A stretch of DNA of 64,000 nucleotides from Adineta vaga (Eukaryota > Animalia > Rotifera), in assembly GCA_021613535.1 (NCBI GenBank), contig CP075497.1, positions 2,418,001 through 2,482,000 on the forward strand, in the 5' to 3' direction. The notes under the pieces were generated by a model. That model saw only the letters and a list, made by a program, of their open reading frames with translations. It did no database searches and was not told where the DNA came from. Shown here one piece after another: positions 830-45,061 of the stretch. The position numbers were made by a program, and so were the translations under genes. How positions within the stretch are numbered: position 1 is the stretch's first letter; the number at the start of each line of letters is the position of its first letter.

Positions 830-2166
830 GTTTGCTGTTCAATCTAAGATAATATTCGAATGAATAACAATGTTCGAAGTGATATTTGAAAAAAGTTTTA
901 TTCCGCAAAGAAAATGTTCAAGGTATTTTACATAATCGAAATGCGAATTTTCCCTTTAGTCATTTTTCGTTGAAGTAAATAAGTAAATAAAGAAAGAAAA
1001 CGATGGACGGAGGATGTGATGTTGCAATATGCAGCGGTAAAAATATGAAATAAGATTAGTTGATAAGAGAACAAATCAACGAATAGGAAAAAAGAAATTT
1101 ACTATACACAACTGATGATGATGACGATGTCGTTACTTGTTGAGTTCTATTAATGAGACATTTTTTATACCATTTAACATACTTTACATATGAAAAACTA
1201 TATTCGTGTTCGAATTTCAAGCATATCAACGGAACTATAGATTTAAAAACAATGGATCATTCCAGAAACAACAGTTTAGGTATTTATGAGTCTCAGGTTT
1301 TCAAGAATGTAAAAATAAAACACAAAAATTTCAAGGAATACTATTTATTCATATATATTTGTACTGATTCATGATCCATTGTTCATAGAATCATTGTTGT
1401 AATTTGGATGCAATGCTATCTATAGATAGTTAATTGTGAGAAGTGGTTGCTTGATATTAGGATCCAATCAGAGAAGAACATGAAATAAACCTCACTCACC
1501 TAGGTCTGTCTCTATAGTATAGTAGTAGTAGTTCTGCATGATTCGTTTTGTTTCTGAAGATATCGCGAAACATCCGGAGTAAGAAATTGAAGAAACTCAT
1601 CAACTATGTCAAGAGTATAGTAAGAGATAAGGGTAGAGTAACATACTAGTCAAATATAAGAAATTTATTGCGGAAAAAGAAAACAAATAGATTGTTTCAA
1701 TCATCATGGTATTTGGTAAATATGGGAATGGTAATGGGAAGATAGTTTTTTTTAGCGAATGGGAATCAGAAAAAGTCATTCCTGCAAAACACTAGTACTT
1801 AGACATAACCTTTTATCATATAATAGTTTTTTCCTATACTTCAAAACACACACATGGGTGTGGTAGTAAAGAAACGATAAATATTTTCTTTTTTTGCATA
1901 GTTTGATGTCTATGTTGAAAATTTTCAATTTCATGTTTTTCTCGACCACACGTCAAAACATGCTTCCATTTAGTGAAAATTGCCATGTTACCATTGTGTG
2001 GCATGGAGCAACCAGTCATGTTCTATTTTTTTTCTTTCATTATCTACTAATTTCGATATTTAGTAAATGTATAACCATCTGATAATTTAATTCAATCTTC
2101 TGTTCCTCATAACAATTATTTAAATGAATTTTGCTTTATTAGATCTTTCAAAATAACCAAGTGATC

Positions 2167-3127
2167 ATGCCATCCATCGTAGCGGGAATTGAAATGGGTG
2201 GTACTGGTTGTAAAGTAGCTATTAGTGATGAAAATGGACAATATGATAATAACTATTCGTTAAATGTTATAACAACTGATCCTCAAAATACTTTACGTCA
2301 AATTTATGAATGGTTAGAAACAAAAAATACAGAACGACCATTTCTTGCCATAGGCATTGCATGTTTTGGACCTGTTGATTTAGATAAAACAAGTAAAACA
2401 TATGGTTTTATTACAACAACACCAAAACCTGGTTGGCAATATGTTGATGTTGTCGGTGCTTTCAAAGGTTTAAATGTACCTGTAGCATTCGAAACTGATG
2501 TCAATGCACCAGCTATGACTGAAGCTGCACTTCGTGGTGATTCATCAGCAGCATATATTACAGTTGGAACAGGTTCGATTCCTTCCATCATTTTTCCGAT
2601 TTATCTACTCTAAATGTGTCCCGACGAATATAGGTGTCGGTGTTGGTCTTGTTCTTGAAAACATTCCTGTTCATGGTTTAATGCATCCTGAAGGTGCTCA
2701 TATAAAATGTGAACGTATAGCTGGTGATGATTATCCAGGTGATTGTCCATATCATGGTTCATGTATTGAAGGTATGTGTAAAGCAAAAGCTGTGGCCGAT
2801 CGTCTCAATATCATGCCAAGTCTTCTCAGTACAATTCCTGATGATCATCCCGTATGGAATATTCAAGCATATTACATTGCACAATTATGTGCCTCAGTTA
2901 TTTATCTAACATCAGTTAAACGTATTATTATCGGTGGTGGTTTAATGAAACGTAATGGTTTATTTGAACACATCCGAAAACATGTCTTACAGATTCTCAA
3001 TGATTATTTAAATATACCAACAATTACGAAAAATATCGATGATTATATTGTTCCATCAAAACTTGGTGAATTGATTGGACTTCAATCTGCTTTTGATCTT
3101 GCACAACGTGTCATTGAAAAGAAATAA
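2167..3127 (+). CDS. ROK-family fructokinase (ScrK/YdhR-like), 2 exons (intron 2573-2633); HGT candidate
   Basis: Motifs GIEMGGT, GIACFGPVDL, ITTTPKPGW, TDVNA, YITVGT|GVGVG, HPEGAH and CPYHGSCIEG (ROK Zn-binding). The 61-nt GT-AG intron joins ORFs 2161..2613 and 2534..3127 in frame. Confidence 0.92.
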
Positions 3128-28103: not shown

Positions 28104-28162
28104 GAGTGTTTTCGAAGGAGTCCCTAACATCGAACGATTATCTTATTCGTAGAATTGCTAGA

Positions 28163-29836
28163 ATGCCAATTCAATCACCTATTTATTTAGTTGCTAGTGG
28201 TGATTCTCGACTTGCTGCTAATCAAACATGTTGGGATGCACAAAATAAACTCGAACAAGCACTTGGTAAAGCACTAGAATCACTTGGTCATACAATCAAA
28301 CGTGCGCATGAATATGATGAAATAAAAAAACATGGTTTTATCGATAGTCAACGTATGGGCATGAAAGTTTTCGCTAATTTACCATCCGATGATGTACCAT
28401 TGATCGTTGCTGAAGCTGTTTGGCAATATTCACATCATGTTTTAGCTGGTTTAACAACACATAAAGGTCCAATTTTAACTTTAGCAAATTGGTGTGGACA
28501 ATGGCCAGGTCTTGTTGGAATGTTAAATTTAAATGGTTCATTAACAAAAGCTGGAGTGAAATATAGTACTTTATGGTCAGTCGATTTTACTGATGAATTC
28601 TTTGTTAATAAACTAAAAGAATGGTTGGAAACGGGAAATATTCAACATGATGTATCACATGTACGAGCATTGAAACAATTTAAAGCGATTCCAGATGATT
28701 TGGAAAAAATTGGACAAAAAATCGCCCAAGATATTTTGAAAAACAAAGCAATTATGGGTGTATTTGATGAAGTAGGAAAAGAAAAAAAACGATAGAAAAT
28801 TTCCAATTTAAATGATGTATTTTAGGGTTGTATGGGAATGTATAATGCAATAATACCCGATGAACTTCTTCATAAATTAGGTATTTTTAAAGAACGTCTT
28901 AGTCAATCGGCACTTTTCTATGAAATGCAAGTAACAAATGATGAAGAAGCTCGTGCTGTTTATAACTGGATAAAAGAAAAAGGAATGAAATTTGATTTAA
29001 AAGATCAACCAAATGATGCAACGGATTTAACTGAAGAACAAATTCTTTGGCAATGCAAAATGTATATTGCTGCTGTTCGTTTAGCAAATGATTTCGGATG
29101 TGATCTAATTGGTATTCAATATCAACAAGGTTTAAAAGATTTAGTTCCTGCTTCTGATTTAGCCGAAGGTTTATTGAATAATGTCGATCGACCACCTGTA
29201 AAAGATCGTTCAAATAAACGAATTCTTTTTGAAAATGCAGCTGTACTACACTTTAATGAAGTCGATGAATGTGCTGGCGTTGACGCATTGATTACCAATC
29301 GTGTTTGGAATCAATTAGGTTATCCACCTGAAACAACTTTGCATGATGTTCGTTATGGCGAAGATTATGATGGTGTATTTACATGGGTATTTGAAATATC
29401 AGGCGCTGTTCCACCTGAACATTTAATTGATGGTTATAAAGGTGCTTTTAGTTTACGTCAGCCGCCGATGTATTTTCATAAAGGTGGTGGTACAATTCGT
29501 GGTGTTTCAAAACCAGGTGAAGTTGTTTGGAGTCGAATTTATACAGAAGATAATCGTTTAAAAGCTGATCTTGGTCGAGCACGTGTTGTGAAATTACCAA
29601 GCGAAGAAACTGAACGACGTTGGCGTGATACAACACCACAATGGCCTATTATGCATGCTCAATTACTTGGTGTTAGTCGAGATCAATTAATGGCAAAACA
29701 TAAAGCAAATCATGTTCAAGTTGCTTATGCTCCCGATGCTCAAGGTGCACAAAAAGCTTTAGCAGCTAAAGCAGCCTGTTTTCAAGCATTGGGTATTGAA
29801 GTTTTCATCTGTGGTACTGAATCCGGACTTGATTAA
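28163..29836 (+). CDS. L-fucose/L-arabinose isomerase-related protein of bacterial type, 2 exons (intron 28772-28825); HGT candidate
   Basis: Motifs [57 protein letters not shown]|[71 protein letters not shown]. The 54-nt intron is phase 0. Confidence 0.88.
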
Positions 29837-30821
29837 TAGATTACCAAATAGAAGGTTTTTTTATATAATATTAGCTTTTTATCATTTTGTCTAAATAATC
29901 CAAGTAATAAATTGTTTTTCTTGATTTGAAAAAATTCATTATACATATCGAATGAAGTTTAACCTTCTGCTTAGCTAGATATTCAAGTCGAAAAAACGAA
30001 TAAGAGTTAGAGTAATGAAAGAATCTTTATTCATTAAGTTTGCCCTTGGAATCGAATATTTGTTTTCCTGCTATTATGCACGTAGCAGTATCATTTTTCA
30101 TTCAGTATTGGTTCGTCGGTCGGATCAAAATTTCTTATCAATTACAGTTAGCTTATGATTTTATTATAAATTAACATTTTTCATTCGTATTTAGGATAAG
30201 GTAAAAAGAAATAAATCGACATGCGTAAGAACCCAGTCTTTTGTTTCGCATTTGTGGTGGTGACCGATATTGTTTGAGTAGTATGCAAATTATTTTATGA
30301 TGAACAAATCTGTGTACTTTTAAGTTACTATATTAGTTTTATTCGATATTTAGATTGTTTAAAAATAATTATTTACAGGTAGTTAGCTATATTTTGTTAT
30401 TAAAATATTTGTTCATTAATCTTTAGAATGTTGCAAGGAACCAATTTAGTGGTAAGTCCTTTATTGTAAATTAATCGATTCTTTCTCTATTTTGATCTAT
30501 TAAGATATCAGGTTTAGAGGTAATTGATTCCATATGAACTAATATTATTCTTTTGTATTTAGAATGATCAGATCAATAATTCTATTTTCTTTCATTTAGA
30601 TAGTGTGACAACAATTGTATCATCGAGAATAAACTGTACACTAAACATTCTATACCAAACGATAATGTAACATTAAAATCTATTTTCGGAGTGAAAGGCA
30701 GAGCGAAGCAGAGTTGTTCAAACAATATGATGTCCAATGATAGGACGTATTGGATACGAAGTTCTTGAATCGAAATGCAGAATATAAAATCTTTTTCTAT
30801 TATCATTGACATCTCGATGTG

Positions 30822-30953
30822 TACGAAACCCTACCCACGAAACCATTTTTATTTCGATCTTCAAAAGGGTTTCGTGGAAAACCTTGACAATACGAAACCA
30901 CAAAAGGATTTCTAATTCGTTGTAAAGTGCGAAATCCTTTTTTGGTTTCGTAT
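30822..30953. repeat. Double inverted-repeat (hairpin) element built on ACGAAACC, MITE-like
   Basis: CCACGAAACC (30835-30844) pairs with GGTTTCGTGG (30868-30877). ATACGAAACCACAAAAGGATTTC (30890-30912) pairs with GAAATCCTTTTTTGGTTTCGTAT (30931-30953) with one mismatch. Confidence 0.65.
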
Positions 30954-31085
30954 AAAACCGTTTTTATTTTCAGTGTGTTCTATTTCCAAACTCACTCTTA
31001 CTCTTCTCATATGCATATTTGCCCAAAACTACACTTTATTTTCGAAAAATACCAAAAAGCATATTTTTCCACCTATCAAAGACTG

Positions 31086-34000
31086 CTATAACCAAGAGAA
31101 GCACACGTTTTTCTTATTTTTCTTCAATGTGTTCAGGTGTTTTGCACCTTCATCACCGATTTGATTGCCTTCGAGACTGAGCATGGTGACTGTCTGTGTG
31201 AAATGGAAAAGATGAATGAGATATAGAAATGAAGAGGTTCATTTAGTCTTACTGAGTTTTTTCCCAGTCCTTTACCAATGTATTGTACACCCTGAGCGCC
31301 AATTTTATTGTGGTCGAGACCGAATGCGGTGATTGTCTGTGTGAAATGGAAGAGATGAACGATATATAGAAACGAAGAGATTTATTTAATCTTACCGAGT
31401 TTTTTTCCAATGCTTCAGCGATGTAATGTGCACCTACATCACCAATTTGGTTTTCGGAAAGATTGATTACGGTGATTCTCTGTATGAAATCGAAAAGATG
31501 AATGAGATACAGAAATGTAGATATTCATTTAGTCTTACTGAGTTTTGTCCCAACGCTTCAGCAATGTAATGTGCACCTACATCACCAATTTGATTTTTGC
31601 AGAGGTAGAGTTGTGTGATTGTCTGTATGAGACGCAAAAGATGAACGAGATATAGAAATGAAGAGATTAATTGTCTTACCGAGTTTTTCCCCAAACCTTT
31701 ACCAATGTAATGTGCACCTACATCACCAATTCGATTGCTGGAGAGAGTGAGTCTGGTGACAAACTGTATAAAATGAAAAAGATGAACGAGATATAGAAAC
31801 GAAGAGATTCATTTAGACTTACTGAGTTTTGTCCCAATCCTTCACCAATGTATTGTGCACCTACATCACCAATTTGATTTCCGAAGAGGCAAAGGTCTTT
31901 GAGTGTCTGTATGAAATGGAAAAGATGAATGAGATATAGAAGTGAAAAGGTTCATTTAGTCTTACTGAGTTTTGTCCCAATGCTTTACCAATGTATTGTG
32001 CACCTATATCACCGATTTGATTTGCGATGAGACGAAGTTCTTTGAGTGTCTGTATGAAATGGAAAAAGATGAATGAGATACAGAAACGAAGAGATTCATT
32101 TAGACTTACTGAGTTTTGTCTCAATCCTTCACCAATGTATTGTGCACCTACATCACCAATTTGATTACTCCCGAGGTCGAGTTCTGTAAGTGTCTGTATG
32201 AAATGGAAAAGATGAATGAGATACAGAAATGAAGGGATTCATTTAGACTTACTGAGTTTTGTCCCAATGCTTCAGCAATGTATTGTGCACCTACATCGCC
32301 AATTTGATTGTTGCAGAGGTAGAGGACTTTGAGTATCTGTATGAAATGCAAAAGATGAGTGACATATAAAAGTGAAGAGATATATTAATTAAAGTGTTTT
32401 TCGAAAACAAAGTTTGGTTTCAAGTGAATTTTTGCCGTGCTGAAGTCAAGCAGTATTAGTTTATTATCGTTGTTTTTCTCGTAGAGAGGAGTCATGGAAG
32501 AATAGATTGTTGGCTTGCTTGCTTGTTTGTTCAATTCCTTGTGTCCGCACTTCACTGATTAGGCCAATCCAATAATAGGGTTATACAAAGAAACTACTTT
32601 CCATAGAACCTGACCTGGAGGTAATCAAAGAAGCGAAATGTGGATATTATATTAGTTCTAGCTAATTATTAACTAATAATATTTCAAATGGAACTTCACC
32701 AAAAGGTAATAAAAGGGGCGAAGTCAGCGGCTGAGATTATTTTTGATTAATTATTTATTATATATTGAGTAACAGTGAGTTAATAATTAACTAAGAACAT
32801 CCTCTATAAAATCTGATCAACGAGTAATCGAGAGTGGGAAATTCAAATGTGAGGTTAATTTTAGTTGGTCAATCATTTATTAATCAAAATAAATATTTTG
32901 CTGAAAGTTTCAAAACACCATTGCTACGAGGTAGAGCGTACCGAATCCTTGGACAAGCGTTATTTGTAGATGTAGGAAAATTTATGTTCGATTTTTAAGA
33001 AAAAGAGAATGTAGTAGAAACAATACATGCCAGAATAGAAGTTTTTTCATACTGCTGCGGTTCATTCAGTCGTAACTACGTTAATTTCAGGAATGGTTTG
33101 TAAAATAAAGAAGCGATACAGTGATTTAACTATGCATTTCGAAATGAAAATTAGCGAGAAAAGTTTGTATAAATATTGTAGTGTTATTTTTGGCAAGAAA
33201 CTATTGAGTCACTTGTACGATGTCAATGAATTAGTAGGTTTCGGATGTTGAAAGCTGACGGGTAATTAACTTGTATAAGAAAGTTTCACGGTCTTGAAAA
33301 TATAAAACAAGAAAATAATTTGAAGCGAAGATCTATAATGGAGGAGCTTAGGGTCTCAATATGATATATATGGTTGTTAGAATTGAATTTTCTGGTACTG
33401 TGAATGAATCATTTTATAATGTACTTGGGATGAAAAGTTTAATAAGGTTGTTCCAAATATATACTTTAAGGTTAATCTGAGATTTTAACGCCTAGTCGTT
33501 GATACATATACAATCAGTTTCCTATTTACACTTCAAAAAGTTGATCCGTTTATAATGGGTTGTTTTCTCCTCAGAGATACTGAAACTTTACATAATAGTG
33601 TGATCCGAACCACAGATTGTATCCTTCGCTCCACTTTTCGTCATCGATAATCGAGCAATCTCGTTCTACAAAAGGCATTAATTAAGTTTGTTTTTAAATC
33701 ATTCAAACTATCTGATTTTTTCAATCATTTTCAACTCAATTCTCCAAATAAATGTCTATCTGTTCAAGAGGTCTACGAAAAATGACCGAATGAAAAGTGA
33801 TCTACGTTAATTTACAGATACGAGAATTAGTCTAATTCAGAAAAATCGGCTTAATTGAAAATGCAACAGGTATTTGAGATTCTTTTTATTATGCATTTAA
33901 CTAAACTAAACAGGTAACGCGGCGTAGTAGCCGCTGATCTTCTACTGAAAAGACATCATCAGATCCCTCCTATTCCTCAAAAGAAAGAAATAAAAATTAT

Positions 34001-37000
34001 TTCATTTGAATAATTCAATCATTTGATAATTTATCTTAATCTTTTGCTCATACTCATTTTGCTCCCTAAAATCTTCTCAGGCTAACGCCTAGTCGTTCGT
34101 CGGCCTCCTCCCCGGTCGGTCACTTACAGCTAGCCGTTACCATGGCAGCCTCCATTATGCCTTTCACTTTTGACTAACTTTCAAAGCGAATAATTACGTT
34201 TCTTTTCATTGTTGCTCCCGAAGTAGGGATTTTCCATTTATTTTATTATCAAACCAAACTAGATAAAAAGTTTTATTTTATGATTTGGCGTGAAAAAAGC
34301 ACCCATCATAGTGCTTCATATGTTTAGGATACCATTGGTATAGTCGATTTCTCTCTAGCTAATAAGATGGAATTGCACTGACGGACATACTCTATCGCAA
34401 CATATTTCTGCTGAAATCCTGTCGAAAGACCTGACGTGTCGTAGCTAACAGCCCGATAATCAAATTAAGCTCTACCACGTACAAATATCATAATGTAAGA
34501 TATACTAAATTTTTTTGTGTGAGCTCCTAAACTACTATCTTCGCACACAACACATGCAAGAATAGCGTTTAATTCACTACCTTCTACAAAAGATTTTACG
34601 AAAGATACAGAAAAATATCTCTTTTAAAAAGAGAAAGGAAGAAGACAAAGCTCAGCGAATAAGAAAAAAACTAACCTCAGATTCGAGTTCCACGACCTCG
34701 ATTACTCCGGATCGATTGTCTTCGGATAATCATGGTTCAGTTTTCATTCATTTGCAAAATGCAGCAAGCTGATTGGATTAAACAAGCTCAAGCACAAACA
34801 AACTTTTAGTATTTTAACGACCGAGTTTACGGCGCTATACCGCATTCTTTCAGAAAAGGGAGTAATAAAAAAATAATGAAAATTATTGATTATGAATATT
34901 TTAATCTGCCCCTTAGCAAAATCTAAGAAATAAAATGTAACTTACTATATCTTTCTTTAGCAGATAAGAAGCAACTATTTCCATATCAGCATCTATCATT
35001 CCGTTCTCTGACAAGTTTAAGTCTGGTCGAAGTCGCTTTTGACTCATGATTTGTTCTAATTTTGAATTTTCGTACTTCGGTGGTGACGATAATAAATTTG
35101 TCGTTGTTGTTTTTGATTCTGAAAAAGATCGATAAAAGATGATTCTATCCTACAAATGATATCTAAAGCAAAATTCTTCTCCTAGCTACACTGTAGAAAA
35201 AATGACAGCAAAATAAATGAACTATCAATTTTTAATTCAATAATAATATTGATTATATTGTTTATTTTAGAGGGTCCATGAATCCATCGAGCATAGTCAT
35301 ACTATAAAAATTTTAAAATTGATTGTCAAAAATCATGCTATTTATTTTTGTTGAACTATGAAAATTCAGTTAGAAAATGATCTGGAGAAATTGAAATGGC
35401 TGATTTTGCTCAGCTCTCTAGATGGACTATCTTTTGGCATATAATAGTAAAAGATGCTTTGAATCGTTGAAATAAAATGCGCACAGGTGATTTGAAATAA
35501 CTTAAGAAGAGTTCTTTGATGATGAAGAAACAGTGGTTAAAAGTTGTCACGGGCTAATTTTGGTGTGGAACATCCAAACACTAAAAATTTGTATATCGTT
35601 GATAGTTTTTATCACTCTTATTGCTTCCTCTGGATCTGAGGTAATAATATCTTTATGCAGAATATATATGTAATGAATTTTATTTTGTAAAATTCGAAGA
35701 TATGAAATAATAGATAGAATAATTCGTTAATGTGTGACGAGATGGAGGAGTAGCACTACTACCACTCTCGATATACTAGATGTTTATTCGAGCTACTTCA
35801 ATATTCCAAATCCTGCCATACAACATAAAACGTTCGCTTTATATTTGCACTTACGAGAAAGAGAAAAGAACAGAAAAGGGATGAAGTATTCACTAGCATA
35901 TTACATAAGAGTAACATCATAATAGCTACGGACACTAACATACCAGATAACGATTCGATTTTACACAACGATGCATTCCGTAACACTAAAAAAAAGATTA
36001 GCACATTCTTCCTATATAAAGAAGGCGTAGAAAAGTCAAAGAAGAGGAAGCATGTATATCTGAATCAGAAAGGACACCCAACCATTATTGGCACAATGTA
36101 CTATTCCAAATTTACCTGATGATGAACGTTTAAGCAAGATTCGAAACGGTCGCCCTAAGTAGCTTGAAATAATCTTTGAAACTCATCCTGAAAAATTCCA
36201 AGTGTTGCCAGGTTTTGGTAAAAAAATGGAATTTTTCATAAAAAAGTATCAAAACTCAGGACTCCTTTTCTAGCTTTAGTACCTCCACTTTGGATATCAG
36301 ATAGAGCGAAAAAAAACTGCGTATAATTGATCCAAAGTTTTGGGTGATTTTATGAAGGTTTTACAACGAAAATTGGCAAGCTTTATGTATATAAAAATGG
36401 TTTTTGTGCACCTCTAGTCATTCTATGTGCATAATTTTATCGCAATTGAATGAACTTTTAAAAAGGTTCTGCAGATATCTAAAAGCTTTCAAATGCGTCG
36501 AAAGTGAAAAAAAAGCATGAAAATTCGACAGAACCTTCAAAAGGCTCTCCGTTATATCCAGCAGAAGATCCTTTAAAGGTTCTGCAAATTTTTTGAATCC
36601 CTTTTTTGGAACTTTTAATACATTTAAAATCTTGTTGACGTCTCCAGAACCTTTTTGATGGTTCGGTAGATTACCTTTTTTTTCTTTAGTTTGTGCCACA
36701 GCCGCATTCAACGATTCTCTCGCTTTTTTTACAAATATTGCCATTATTATAAACATAGAACCAAAAAGACACCACCCGATGGTCTTAATAATATAAAATG
36801 CAATCACCGCAACCGCTATAAGTAATAGAGCCGCCTCAATTAGCGTTATTTTCGTCAATGCTTGTACACCTGCACCAATTCCAACACCAATTACTGTAGC
36901 GTTTGCTTTTAAACTTTCCATTGTTGATCTCGTGGTTCTTAATGTGGCGTTAATCTCGTTCCCAGTCGCCTTTATTGTTGTATTAGCAGTGTTTGTCGCG

Positions 37001-37029
37001 TTTGTAACAGCTGACGTGACGTTTCCCAT
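31086..37029 (-). CDS. Membrane-anchored RI-type leucine-rich-repeat protein, about 435 aa, 11 exons: 36675-37029, 34946-35118, 32253-32336, 32110-32193, 31966-32049, 31823-31906, 31680-31763, 31539-31622, 31396-31479, 31253-31336, 31086-31193
   Basis: All junctions are GT-AG and frame-compatible. Exon 1 ends AAG|gtaatc (phase 1) and exon 2 starts ttcag|AA. Exon 2 encodes an LRR cap (YENSKLEQ...LNLSENGMIDADMEIVASYLL). Exons 3-10 are 84-nt 28-aa LRRs (xLxxLxLxxNQIGDVGAQYIxxxLxxNS). Exon 11 ends NVCFSWL*. The exon 1-2 and 2-3 links across long introns are inferred from splice signals and phase. Confidence 0.8.
31140..32380. repeat. Tandem array of nine ~143-bp units, each an LRR exon plus a 57-60-nt near-identical intron
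   Basis: Exon starts on the minus strand are 32336, 32193, 32049, 31906, 31763, 31622, 31479, 31336 and 31193. The intron consensus is roughly gtaagactaaatgaatctcttcatttctatatctcattcatcttttccatttcatacag. Confidence 0.97.
36460..36656. mobile_element. Putative MITE-like element (~197 bp) in intron 1 of the LRR gene
   Basis: Perfect 12-bp terminal inverted repeat AAAAAGGTTCTG (36460-36471) / CAGAACCTTTTT (36645-36656), with internal copies CAGAACCTT (36529) and AAAGGTTCTG (36575). No clear target-site duplication. Confidence 0.45.
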
Positions 37030-37559
37030 AGTTAGAATAGTGAACTGTTATATAATTTTAATCTAAAGAATAAATTTTGAAAGCTTTGGTTTTTTTAAGA
37101 TTGTTTATTTCAATTTTGAAATTTTTATTTTATGATTAGATATAATTTTTAACGAGTTCTTAAAGATACGAGGGAAATATGTTTCTATGCTGTCATTTCC
37201 GACACTTTCCTTCTTTTTCCGTGGAATTTCGACCATTTTGTGAGTATGGTGCTTCGACTTCGAAATGTAAGAGCAATTATTTATGTTGAAAAAATTACTG
37301 AGAAAAATGCAAAACAACAGACTGTATTCACATCCTTATTCAAATTACGAATTCGGTCTCTATCGACTGATAGCAAAATACGAAGTAAACAAAATTCCTT
37401 TCGAGCAGTTTTAGTTTTATATCAATTTGTTCTAAATAATCAGAACAACACACGTTTTCTTGTTTGGAAAAGATATACAATGCGAAAACATATTCTAAAC
37501 TACATAATACAGAAAAAAAAGGAAGTTATGCAATTATAATGCTGAAATCATCTGACACG

Positions 37560-40500
37560 TTAAGGTGAACGTTCACGTTTACGTTTTGGTGTTGTAGTAG
37601 ATAATACTCGTCGAGGAGTGCTCACTTCCATCGGTTTTAAACGACGTTCAATATCCGCAAGTACAGGCTAAACAAACAAAAAATATCTTAAATTTTTATT
37701 CATAAAATTTAAAAATAATTCTACCATCAAATATTTTTTCCATGCAAGATGTTCTTCTTCATCATAATCATCTACATTTTGTTCATTAGATTCTGTAACA
37801 TTTGGAAAATTTTCTTTTAATACACGATATGATGCCAATGTTTTAATATTTAATTTACTAAGACAATAAGCAATATTTCCTCGTTTTCGATCATCACCAC
37901 TAAATCAGAACAGAAAAATAGATAAATTAATCAATGAAATTGTCTTACCATGCTTGTTTAAATTGTCGACAAAGTCGTTTGACTAAAATCTCGCAATGGC
38001 GATCGTTTTTAATGTACGAAAACAAATGAGAAATAATATCTTGAAAAACATCTTTTGAACATATGGTATTCATTGATAAACGAGATATAATATCAGGCAA
38101 AACATTGAATAAAGCCATGCCACGTTGTCGTAATGATAATTCATCGAAGAAATGTTGAGCAATACTTGATATTGGCGTATGAGAATGAAACAAACATAGC
38201 GCTATTTCACTAATATAACCACGAACTTTAATCATTTCTCGAAGAATGAGTATCGCAATCGTACATAATGCTGTTTCACCAACATTCAAATCTTTATCAT
38301 GAATTTGTGCATAAAATTGCGGTGTAAATGGTTCGATAATATTTGGATGTCTACATCGAAAATCAATATTTTTCTTTAAAAGCAAGATTTCTGATTGAAA
38401 TACTTACCGAAGAAGTAAATCACCAAGTGAAACAATCAATGCTGAACGTACAGATGAATATGGACATAATTTCGAGATTTCAAAGATTCGATCGACATAT
38501 TTTGAACACACAGTTGGTGATACATACATCATTCGAGTACATGTTAAAATACTTGTTAAAACAAGATTTTCATCATATAATGAATGATCTTCATGAATAA
38601 ACTAAAATAAAATCATAAAAATGAATAATTGAAATGGAAAAATAGATTCATACTGATTCCATCCATTTATCAATTGAATAAAAAAGTGAATTAGATTGAA
38701 ATAATTCTTTTTCCAGTTGACTAAAATCTGAATGTTGTTGCTGTATAAAATGATTATCTTCATGATGATTTTCTTGTTGTGCAAGATTTTCTTCATCTTC
38801 ATCGTCAAATAATTGTCGTGAAACAGATGAGGATGTTTCACTATCATCAATATCATTATCATCATCATTAAGAACAATGTGTATCTTCGCTTTTTTTGTC
38901 TTTTTTATTGAAGATAAATTTGTACTTTCATATTTTTGTACTTGATGAGTAAGAAAAGCATTCATTGATACTAATAATCGAATGAATTTAATTCGCCATG
39001 ATTGATCGATGAGTTTCGATTGAGAATCAAAATTTTCAGTTGGCCAATTCAATTGTTCAGCTAAATTGCGAAGAAATTTCATGATAAAATCATCGGCTGA
39101 GATATGTGAAGGTTCTCGAAGAAATAAAATATTGAAAATTTGCTTCATACAATTGACCCATGATTGATGATTGACATCTGTCGATGAATCAAGTAATTTT
39201 TTCGTAATTAAATCATAAAATTCATTGGGAATTTCATTCGATGATTTGATTTTTAATAAATTCGAAAGAATTTGTATTTGATAATGAAAATAATCTAAAC
39301 TATATCGATCAATTTGTCGTACAAGACTTTGAAGAATTAAATTTAAACGTGAAGATAAACGATGTTTGGTATCGTAAGAAATGACGAAAGAGATTAATTG
39401 TAGAAAGGAATTTTGTCTTTGTTGAATTTGTTTGAGAAATTCATCTGTTACAAGTTTTTTCGAAGATTCAGTTGTTATTTTCAAATAATAATCAAGAAGA
39501 ACTTCAATAAATGAAAGAAAACTTGCAGTTGGAGATGTTGATTCACCAAGAAGTTGTTTAAGAATATGTTCAAATGTTAATGTTAAATTTAAATCGATTT
39601 GATCGAGAAGTTTTTCAATAATTCTTTTCGAAGAAATTCTAAAAAAAGAAAATCAATAAAATTAACATTTTCTTCTAGATGTAAGAAGATTTCTTACTTT
39701 TCATCCGTCGCTTCATCATCAATTTTTAAACAAATTCTTTTAAATCCATTAATGATTGCATTGGAGATGTTCTTATCATTCGACCAGATTAATGAAAATA
39801 AATATTTTTCTAATTTTTTATAAACATTTGATTGACATTCAAATGTTGACCACTAAAACAAGAATACGAGTTGAAAGATTAGTTCAAGACAATTGAATTA
39901 TACTTACTAAAACAAGAAAATCAATGATTTCAAGTACGTCACTTGTTACTTTTGAACTGAGTAGATAAAAAGCATCTTTAGCAAGAAATCTTCGTAGATG
40001 ATTACAAAAATCTGTTGCATTATGTAAATAAGTACTTAAAGAACAAACCAAAAACATTTTCAATTAGAAAATTTCTTTTTTCTTCTACATACACAAGTTT
40101 CGATTGTTTAACCATATTATCAAATAATCGTTTGACTTTTTCCATTGGTTCTTCATCATCAATCACATCGATAGTATTAGTAATTGCTAAACAAGTATTA
40201 AGTCGACTTTGTAATTGAATTAATTTACTCATTTCAACATTATATTTTTCAAATGATGCTAATGATTCATCTGTTGAATACATTGAACAAACACGTTGTT
40301 GTTGTTCGACAACACGTTCAAATAAAACATGTTGATCATCGTGATCATTCTCCTTGTCACTATCAGTTATTTTATCAATATCAATCGAAACATTATCAAG
40401 TTGCAATGTTTGCCCTAATAATCGTTGTAATTGAACTAATTTATTCATTTCAGAATTGTATTCATCAAGCATTGCATCAATTGGAAGAAACTAGAAAAGA

Positions 40501-44190: not shown

Positions 44191-45061
44191 ATGTCGCAAA
44201 ACGATTTACCTGTAGTTTTTGTTACACATGGAGCGTAAGAAAGTTATAAAATTTTAATTCGACTAATTCAATTTTCATATCTTTAGAGGTCCAATGATGT
44301 TTCTCGATTCGCCACCAATGCCGGTTTTTGGTGAAGTTGATCGAAATAGTCCAGCAGCTCAATGGTATCGTCAACTATCGAAACAATTAGCTTTAACAAC
44401 ACCACCAAAAGCCATTCTCGTTATCACAGCACATTGGGAAACAGCAAACAGTGTTCATATTAGTGCAAAAGAAAAATATACTGAACTTCTTTATGACTAT
44501 GGTGGATTTGCACCTGAAGCTTATCGACTTCAATATAATCCATCTGGTGATCTCAACTTGTCCAGACGTGTCAAATCCTTACTTGACCAAGCTGGTATAG
44601 CAGCTAAATTCGATGACAAACGAAATTTTGATCATGGTGTTTTTATTCCATTGAAACTGATCTATCCCGATGCAACTATTCCTGTTGTTGCCATGTCTGT
44701 TCTCAGAAGTTTATCATCAGCTGAACATTTAGCTATTGGTAAAGCTCTTGCACCATTGCGAAAAGAAGGAGTTTTAATCATTGGTTCTGGTTCAACTGTA
44801 CATGGCTTTGACGTTACAGAAAAGCAAGCACATGAATTTGTTGCTGAATTAAGAAAGACTCTCACAGAAGATAATCCACATGATCGTGAAAATGTTTTAC
44901 TTAATTGGGATAGAGCTTTACCATTTGCACGAATGAACCATCCACGTGAAGAACATTTAATACCTCTACATGTTATTGTTGGCGCAGCTGGTTCAGATCG
45001 TGGATATTTATTAAATCCAAATGTAAATGAAACGCAATCTTCTTTTAAATTCGGCAATTAA
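44191..45061 (+). CDS. LigB-family (class III) extradiol ring-cleavage dioxygenase, 4,5-DOPA dioxygenase/YgiD-like, 2 exons (intron 44235-44286); HGT candidate
   Basis: PVVFVTHGA|GP, PKAILVITAHWET, LLYDYGGF..EAY.LQY, RNFDHGVFIPL.LIYPDA.IPVV, H.AIGKALAPLR.EGVLIIGSG..VH, HPREEHLIPL.V..GAAG. Confidence 0.93.

What the first reader, a model, noticed from the sequence alone, without database searches (positions are those of the whole stretch)
34946..37029. Hidden 5' exons give the LRR array an unusual N-myristoyl plus hydrophobic-hairpin N-terminus and no NACHT/NB-ARC domain
Seen: the 203-aa ORF 36418..37029 contains a donor AAG|gtaatc at 36675/36674. An exon missed by the ORF track (34946-35118) has the matching phase and encodes an LRR cap, then splices in phase 0 to the array. 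Exon 1 begins MGNVTS (MGxxxS myristoylation consensus). It continues with a T/N/A-rich helix, a Gly-rich VIGVGIGAGV stretch, two hydrophobic segments (about aa 61-100) and basic KK residues. Inference: a two-pass hairpin would put the myristoylated N-terminus and the LRR solenoid on the same, cytosolic, side. That gives a membrane-tethered intracellular sensor fused directly to a possible oligomerising or pore-forming module, unlike Toll receptors or NLRs. I do not recognise this architecture from any described family.
Basis: partly seen in the sequence, partly recalled or inferred. Interest (0 to 1): 0.82.

Follow-up and report, generated by a model that had tools for sequence, protein, structure and literature searches.

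The report
Membrane-anchored hypervariable LRR protein
A transcribed gene in a likely rotifer genome splices a near-orphan, predicted membrane-anchor exon onto nine leucine-rich repeats whose predicted binding face differs far more between copies than the introns do, so it is likely a lineage-specific, membrane-tethered recognition protein inside the cell that lacks the switch domain of standard immune receptors.

Summary
The hidden exons are real. Single spliced contigs from two studies join exon 1 (37029-36675), exon 2 (35118-34946) and the first LRR exon at exactly the proposed GT-AG sites. The model is 435 aa with nine ribonuclease-inhibitor/NLR-type repeats and no P-loop.

Exon 1 is a near-orphan: one homolog (65%) among 1.84 billion representatives. 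That homolog keeps G2/S6, two GxxxG motifs, the 40-aa hydrophobic stretch and the basic flank.

New here:
- Exposed LRR codons differ about 4.5 times more between repeats than the introns do.
- The ~7.3-kb segment carrying the gene is absent between the same two neighbours in 2 of 2 informative relatives, and a diverged ~200-nt direct repeat flanks it.

A cytosolic LRR is well supported. Myristoylation and a two-pass hairpin are plausible but unproven, because five N-glycosylation sequons and a possible third membrane segment allow an N-out topology. Nothing found supports a pore.

Verdict: likely a lineage-specific, membrane-tethered LRR-only recognition protein. It is a new variant of known fast-evolving one-exon-per-repeat LRR genes, with partial precedents in anthozoan TM-NLRs, LRRC8 and ANKRD22.

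The parts
36675..37064 (-). Exon 1 (5' UTR from about 37064; ATG at 37029; aa 1-118): MG..S start, amphipathic helix aa 4-47 with five N-x-S/T sequons, Gly-rich GxxxG stretch aa 46-55, hydrophobic segments aa 61-81 and 83-100, basic flank aa 101-118; phase-1 donor
35119..36674 (-). Intron 1 (1556 nt). Its first 257 nt are the unspliced read-through tail of the 203-aa ORF; it holds a 64-nt inverted repeat and an antisense Penelope-type hammerhead motif
34946..35118 (-). Exon 2 (aa 119-176): Ser/Thr/Pro linker, helix, and a degenerate first LRR (probable N-cap)
   Evidence: weak profile match
32337..34945 (-). Intron 2 (2609 nt) with multicopy repeats
31253..32336 (-). Eight 84-nt phase-0 exons, one 28-aa RI/NLR-type LRR each (32336-32253, 32193-32110, 32049-31966, 31906-31823, 31763-31680, 31622-31539, 31479-31396, 31336-31253), with 57-60-nt near-identical introns; codons 4, 6, 8, 9 hypervariable
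31004..31193 (-). Last exon: ninth, truncated LRR, basic tail, stop at 31088-31086, 3' UTR to at least 31004
37370..37564 (.). Upstream copy of the diverged direct repeat that flanks the inserted segment (3' UTR zone of the condensin gene)
29836..30038 (.). Downstream copy of the diverged direct repeat (3' UTR zone of the fucose-isomerase-like gene)

Best explanation
The gene is transcribed and spliced into a message for a 435-aa protein in which a predicted membrane anchor (likely myristoyl group, amphipathic helix and hydrophobic hairpin) would hold nine leucine-rich repeats on the cytosolic face of a membrane, where their variable concave surface likely binds foreign molecules. Shown: the splice structure, absence of a P-loop domain, RI/NLR-class repeats, excess divergence at exposed codons, and absence of the gene at the same site in two relatives. 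Inferred: membrane insertion, topology, myristoylation and an immune ligand. With no switch or enzyme domain, it most likely works as a tethered binder (sensor, decoy or inhibitor, as ribonuclease inhibitor does) that captures a target at the membrane or passes it to a separate partner. It likely arrived as an LRR gene inserted between two conserved genes and carries a lineage-restricted first exon as its address label.
For: Junction-spanning contigs in two studies. Repeats match Pfam LRR_6 in 7 of 8 exons; best PDB sequence matches are cytosolic-type LRRs: Roco, GALA, ribonuclease inhibitor, NLRPs. Six K/R follow the last hydrophobic segment in both the window protein and its homolog, which by the positive-inside rule (established knowledge) places the LRR in the cytosol. 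The homolog P0003 aligns over all 118 aa without a gap (77 of 118 identical) and keeps G2, S6, both GxxxG motifs, K82, G85-W86 and the basic flank; it has Pro at 58, 63 and 88, where turns are expected, and keeps only 2 of 5 sequons. Identity falls to 10 of 26 past the donor, and the frame then changes. Helix aa 4-47 is amphipathic (0.16% of 10,000 shuffles reach it). Exposed beta-strand codons have diversity 0.60 at positions 1+2, against 0.13 in intron interiors and 0.19 at silent sites of invariant codons (0 of 100,000 permutations), with 6-7 different residues in 8 repeats at four positions. The segment is absent in L001 and L002 and is flanked by a diverged direct repeat (score 94; 0 of 2000 shuffles reach it).
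Against: Only one homolog exists, so conservation rests on a single pair; G2 and S6 would both survive by chance about 18% of the time at that local identity. The amphipathic signal is weak in the homolog (P 0.12). The homolog has Asp where the window's donor lies, so it cannot use the same GT; whether it joins an LRR is unknown (inference). Five sequons in aa 1-47 exceed the shuffled mean of 2.2 (P 0.023), and a GES scan gives three segments above 1.0. Both AlphaFold models show one unbroken helix over aa 63-114, not a hairpin at 82-83 (pTM 0.39 and 0.33, so weak). At exposed codons third positions are also diverse (0.49) and pN/pS is only about 1.1 (0.58/0.51), so local multi-base mutation or intron homogenisation may contribute. 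The exposed set was chosen by the LRR consensus after I had seen the alignment, and columns share ancestry. No infection-expression data were seen.
Confidence: 0.5

Rival explanations
1. Same cytosolic LRR binder, but a three-pass (or one-pass) protein with a glycosylated N-terminus in the lumen or outside the cell, like a signal-peptide-less receptor N-tail. The myristoylation motif would then be incidental.
For: Five N-x-S/T sequons at 3, 10, 16, 27 and 43 (P 0.023). The GES scan calls aa 42-62 at 1.06 in the window protein and aa 39-59 at 1.38 in the homolog, giving three segments in both.
Against: The homolog keeps only 2 of 5 sequons but keeps G2 and S6. A Hessa-type sum makes the Gly-rich segment unfavourable (+4.9). 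The Asn/Thr-rich composition alone gives 2.2 sequons on average.
Confidence: 0.2
2. Direct sensor-executor: ligand binding to the LRR releases or clusters exon 1, whose amphipathic helix and GxxxG stretch oligomerise and open a pore or rupture the membrane, an NLR-like death switch without a NACHT domain.
For: An amphipathic helix, two GxxxG motifs kept in the homolog, and a hydrophobic hairpin are the parts used by several alpha-helical membrane disruptors (established knowledge). LRRC8 shows that a membrane pore can be fused to cytosolic LRRs. The LRR face is diversified.
Against: No sequence kinship to HeLo/MLKL/RPW8, pannexin or any Pfam family. A constitutively inserted 40-aa hydrophobic stretch looks more like an anchor than a hidden killer helix (inference). 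There is no nucleotide switch to hold it off.
Confidence: 0.12
3. A young chimeric copy with little function: an LRR paralog landed here, captured a nearby open frame as first exon through a new donor, and is drifting; the variable codons are inherited from its source array.
For: Near-orphan exon; absent in 2 of 2 informative relatives; homology with P0003 continues as non-coding DNA past the donor; the homolog lacks this donor; in run X6 most of the gene lies on one contig at about half the summed depth of the two upstream copies, which suggests one haplotype only.
Against: Intact 435-aa frame over 11 exons; expression in three studies (two for the 5' junctions); gap-free 118-aa conservation of charge and hydrophobicity pattern with the homolog; flanking repeats are far diverged, so the insertion is not fresh. 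Presence/absence variation is also typical of functional immune genes (established knowledge).
Confidence: 0.15

Closest known systems
Ectocarpus LRR-ROCO genes with one exon per repeat (Zambounis et al., PMC3341825; abstract and section list seen)
   Same: Each LRR is one exon, the LRR domain is under diversifying change, genes turn over fast, and an immune role is proposed.
   Different: Those carry a Roc-COR GTPase; this protein has no enzyme or switch domain and has an N-terminal membrane module. Exon shuffling between loci was not tested here.
Anthozoan transmembrane NLRs (PMC3879445 and PMC5094078; passages seen)
   Same: N-terminal transmembrane segments placed before a cytosolic NLR-type LRR in an invertebrate.
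   Different: They have 3-5 TM segments with a gap-junction-channel-like profile and retain NACHT. Here there are 2-3 hydrophobic segments of no known family and no NACHT.
LRRC8/VRAC channels (PMC6395065 passages; PMC13586329 search listing)
   Same: N-terminal membrane domain fused directly to cytosolic LRRs with no NTPase.
   Different: LRRC8 has a pannexin-like pore (four-pass, recalled). Exon 1 is 118 aa and shows no pannexin match.
Human ANKRD22 (PMC8478909; abstract and section list seen)
   Same: N-myristoyl group, hydrophobic hairpin with both ends cytosolic, and basic residues acting together as a membrane address (lipid droplets); a repeat protein by its name.
   Different: Ankyrin rather than LRR (recalled from the name); no homology tested or expected. 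ANKRD22 needs a central Pro, which the window protein lacks and its homolog has at 88.
Expanded LRR gene families of the bdelloid Adineta vaga (Arkhipova et al., PMC3846280; passages and section 9 seen)
   Same: Expanded LRR families proposed for defence; intron-containing genes copied to new sites, one LRR gene possibly by a Penelope element.
   Different: The passages read describe no N-terminal membrane module. Here the Penelope-type motif lies inside intron 1, not at the insert ends, so Penelope mobilisation is not shown.

Membership tests
NLR | Central NACHT or NB-ARC P-loop domain | tested here: not met
   Contigs join exon 2 directly to the first LRR exon; no Walker A in the model or in six frames of the insert.
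NLR | C-terminal RI-like intracellular LRRs | tested here: met
   Pfam LRR_6 in 7 of 8 exons; PDB matches include ribonuclease inhibitor and NLRP1/2/3/7.
NLR | N-terminal effector of a known class (death fold, TIR, CC/HeLo/4HB) | tested here: inconclusive
   No Pfam hit for exon 1 or its homolog; models of pTM 0.33-0.39 cannot exclude a remote fold.
Toll-like / cell-surface LRR receptor | LRR ectodomain followed by a TM segment and TIR or kinase tail | tested here: not met
   Hydrophobic segments precede the LRRs, and the frame ends 35 aa into the ninth repeat.
LRRC8/VRAC | Pannexin-like four-pass pore domain before the LRRs | tested here: not met
   At most three hydrophobic segments within aa 39-101; no Pfam match.
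LRRC8/VRAC | Oligomeric channel activity | not testable with these tools
   Needs electrophysiology; no complex prediction was obtained.
Ectocarpus-type LRR-ROCO | One exon per LRR with diversified exposed residues | tested here: met
Ectocarpus-type LRR-ROCO | Roc-COR GTPase domain | tested here: not met
   No P-loop; the stop codon follows the last repeat.
Ectocarpus-type LRR-ROCO | Exon shuffling between loci | not tested
   No whole genome was held for this window.
N-myristoylated hairpin monotopic proteins (ANKRD22-like) | N-terminal myristoylation motif | tested here: met
   Pattern (recalled) fits both the window protein and P0003; the modification itself is untested.
N-myristoylated hairpin monotopic proteins (ANKRD22-like) | Hairpin topology with both termini cytosolic and a central Pro | tested here: inconclusive
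   A 40-aa hydrophobic run with central K82 and G85-W86; Pro88 only in the homolog; two or three segments depending on the scale; AlphaFold shows no break there.

The most novel reading that the evidence does not exclude
Bdelloid-like animals build minimal two-part intracellular immune receptors by splicing a new myristoyl, amphipathic-helix, GxxxG-hairpin module straight onto a diversifying LRR array. The module is a previously undescribed membrane-disrupting executor gated by the LRR with no NACHT switch, and the partly shared second copy of its 5' end indicates that the module is being swapped among genes.
Probability: 0.12. Interest if true: 0.85.

Novelty: new variant of a known kind. Interest (0 to 1): 0.52.

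Why it matters
How bdelloid rotifers recognise their pathogens is open: a recent infection-transcriptome paper has no mention of LRR or NLR in its main text (PMC11258130, term search; supplements not examined). This gene is a concrete, expressed candidate receptor with an unusual layout: an LRR-only binder addressed to a membrane by a lineage-restricted first exon. It shows how exon capture could make new receptor designs without the NLR switch, and it is small enough to test directly. If exon 1 proved to be an executor, it would be a new class of animal membrane-disrupting domain. If it is only an anchor, this is a neat but lineage-specific variant.

Tried and rejected
Homolog searches with exon 1:
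- Word-indexed protein search found none: 0 of 1809 longer and 0 of 55 similar-length candidates.
- Metagenome and viral contig scans found none: 0 of 597 and 0 of 257 pattern matches.
- Pfam and PDB sequences gave nothing significant.
- ESM Atlas gave only sub-threshold leads (best 0.79, small nematode proteins; generic helical models).
- Foldseek gave 0 matches. VIA-align's best Z was 6.9, all generic long helices, many with rmsd above 30, so it is uninformative. No HeLo, MLKL or NINJ1 chain was listed, which does not exclude them.

Exon 2 search: 0 of 19 candidates, so I could not learn what sits upstream of paralogous caps.

A four-copy complex prediction for exon 1 was never run because the queue was full; oligomerisation is untested. 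No whole genome was held, so paralogs and the second 5' copy could not be read.

The 203-aa read-through ORF as a real protein: its extra 85 codons stay open with about 0.9% chance by intron stop frequency, but contigs splice across it, Pfam finds nothing, and the homolog changes frame there. Rejected as the main product; a minor retained-intron form is not excluded.

Other negatives:
- LRR exon skipping: no skipping joint seen, but contigs drop rare forms.
- No RNA holder is on record as RNA.
- Rfam gave no credible match in 30000-38000.
- Loci L003 (ends about 60 nt past the homology) and L004 (35% identity) were uninformative for synteny.
- PMC7145615 (passages) and PMC10197012 (passages) held no description of this layout.

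Full report
Observation. On the minus strand the ATG at 37029 opens a 203-aa frame to 36418. A donor after nucleotide 36675 leaves a 355-nt phase-1 exon; the 173-nt exon 35118-34946 restores phase 0; eight 84-nt exons and a 108-nt last exon follow. Joined by coordinates, they give 435 aa without internal stops. I laid 8 of the 13 runs listed. One contig carries exon 1, exon 2 and the first LRR exon in X1, X2 and X4 (one study; 3 of 4 runs) and in X8 (a second study; 1 of 4 runs). X5, a third study, confirms three 3' LRR joints. X6 holds 32240-36973 unspliced with no difference, so the introns exist in DNA. All ten joints are GT-AG. Four central LRR joints are flagged 'between: not known' because the repeats break the contigs, so the full-length message is pieced together from overlapping contigs and the genome. 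No Walker A motif lies in the model or in the inserted segment.

Organism. Low GC, short introns, bacterial-type genes nearby and this style of LRR array point to a bdelloid rotifer. This is inferred from recalled knowledge; no call names the species.

The LRR part. Seven of eight full repeats match Pfam LRR_6. A profile of them finds 41 PDB sequences, led by Roco proteins, GALA, ribonuclease inhibitor and NLRPs, that is, the intracellular RI-like class. Positions 4, 6, 8 and 9 of each repeat show 6, 7, 6 and 7 different residues in 8 repeats, while the helix side is nearly fixed. Nucleotide diversity at positions 1+2 of the five exposed codons is 0.60, against 0.13 in 41 intron-interior columns and 0.19 at third positions of 10 invariant codons; 0 of 100,000 permutations reach the difference. 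Caveats: third positions of the same codons are also diverse (0.49), pN/pS there is 0.58/0.51, introns may be homogenised by conversion, columns share ancestry, and I chose the set from the LRR consensus after seeing the alignment. Diversification of a binding face is the simplest reading, but local multi-base mutation could contribute. Exon 2 ends in a degenerate repeat; the profile match is weak (probability 8%, E 0.004), so 'cap' is plausible, not established.

Exon 1. It has no Pfam, PDB-sequence, fold or Atlas assignment. An exhaustive search of 1.84 billion representatives returned one protein, P0003 (65% identity over 118 aa, no gap), a singleton from one 1630-nt contig. It keeps G2 and S6, GxxxG at 48 and 50, K82, G85-W86 and six K/R in aa 101-118; it has Pro at 58, 63 and 88; it keeps 2 of 5 sequons. 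Its similarity runs on into the window's intron 1 at lower identity (10 of 26) and then in another frame, so the tail is shared DNA rather than shared protein. P0003 has Asp at the codon that holds the window's donor, so it cannot splice at the same GT; whether it joins an LRR is unknown. Residues 4-47 form an amphipathic helix (peak near 102 degrees; 0.16% of 10,000 shuffles), weaker in P0003 (P 0.12). Two hydrophobic segments (61-81, 83-100) are strong on all scales. The Gly-rich stretch scores 1.06 (1.38 in P0003) on a GES scan but +4.9 on a Hessa-type sum (scale values recalled). Five sequons lie in aa 1-47 against 2.2 expected (P 0.023). The basic C-flank puts the LRR in the cytosol under either topology, but the N-terminus could be cytosolic and myristoylated (two-pass or monotopic hairpin) or luminal and glycosylated (three-pass). 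I favour the first because the homolog keeps the motif and loses most sequons, although joint survival of G2 and S6 has about 18% chance anyway. AlphaFold, with one or two sequences, gives two long helices turning at aa 59-62 with pTM 0.39 and 0.33; it neither shows nor excludes a membrane hairpin.

Origin. A scan with the neighbouring condensin exon returned 4 loci. In L001 and L002 the condensin gene's 3' end abuts the fucose-isomerase-like gene with only about 140 and 70 nt between the aligned blocks; L003 ends too soon and L004 is distant. None holds exon 1, exon 2 or the four LRR exons tested (tblastn, E up to 1). In the window about 7.3 kb lies between these genes, bounded by a diverged direct repeat (37564-37370 and 30038-29836; score 94, shuffle maximum 75 in 2000; the best of 234 window tiles is that same site). 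This fits an insertion that duplicated the intergenic zone, old enough for the copies to diverge; loss in the relatives is less likely given the duplication. In X6 two contigs cover 36994-37150 (depths 62 and 56, the second with 11 differences including a silent change in codon 2). They share 36944-37023, and from there one contig at depth 64 carries the rest. A second copy thus shares the promoter and about 29 codons and then goes elsewhere; it may be an allele lacking the gene body or a paralogous 5' end. I could not read it.

Mechanism. The most economical reading is an LRR-only binder tethered to the cytosolic face of a membrane, acting by capturing or inhibiting a variable, probably foreign, target or by handing it to a partner. 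Splicing, domain content, repeat diversification and restricted presence are shown; membrane insertion, lipidation, ligand and output are inferred. A pore-forming executor remains possible on the strength of the amphipathic helix and conserved GxxxG motifs, but nothing found supports it directly.

Comparison and novelty. One-exon-per-repeat, diversifying LRR genes are described in Ectocarpus (PMC3341825, abstract), and unchecked notes from this scan report similar arrays elsewhere, so that part is a known pattern. N-terminal TM segments before cytosolic LRRs occur in anthozoan NLRs, which keep NACHT (PMC3879445, PMC5094078, passages), and in LRRC8 channels. A myristoyl plus hairpin anchor is shown for ANKRD22 (PMC8478909, abstract). 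LRR family expansion and gene copying are reported for Adineta vaga (PMC3846280, passages and section 9). Ten full-text searches listed no paper whose title, abstract start or read passages describe this combination. The library lacks most subscription papers, and I opened no supplements, where bdelloid domain tables might list it. It fails the defining tests for NLR, Toll-like receptor, LRRC8 and ROCO. I rate it a new variant of a known kind, interest 0.52: real, expressed and odd, but with one homolog and no evidence yet for the executor idea that would make it striking.

Noticed in passing
window 36116-36155 (+): Penelope-type minimal hammerhead motif in intron 1, antisense to the gene: core CUGAUGA, unpaired U, G10.1-C11.1 pair, GAAAC. 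It is the only match of my pattern in 64 kb (0.3 expected) and fits hallmarks in PMC4209133 (passages). The same 37 nt occur in other contigs. Helix I looks degenerate.
   Followed up: partly
window 32822-32862 and 34667-34707: A 41-nt inverted repeat 1.8 kb apart in intron 2; 34536-34863 is high-copy in X6 (depth 260-500 against 64), suggesting a non-autonomous transposon.
   Followed up: no
window 36452-36515 and 36601-36664: A 64-nt inverted repeat just after the exon 1 donor, inside the read-through ORF; possibly a small mobile element.
   Followed up: no
window 28160-29836 (+): L-fucose-isomerase-like gene (Pfam Fucose_iso_N1 and _C) with one short intron, about 90% conserved in L001; likely of bacterial origin (recalled family distribution, not tested).
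   Followed up: partly
window 36944-37150: A second genomic copy in run X6 shares the upstream region and the first 29 or so codons of exon 1, then diverges.
   Followed up: partly
window 31086-37029: GC at third codon positions is 0.30-0.33 in this gene against 0.13-0.20 in the two neighbours sampled, consistent with a different origin or expression level.
   Followed up: no
window 35341-35792: A 452-nt identical intronic contig in run X8 (depth 6.5); unspliced RNA, a separate small transcript or DNA carry-over.
   Followed up: no
window 2143-3127 (+) and 44267-45061 (+): ORFs that look like a ROK-family sugar kinase and an aromatic ring-opening dioxygenase, both possibly of bacterial origin (by eye; names recalled).
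   Followed up: no
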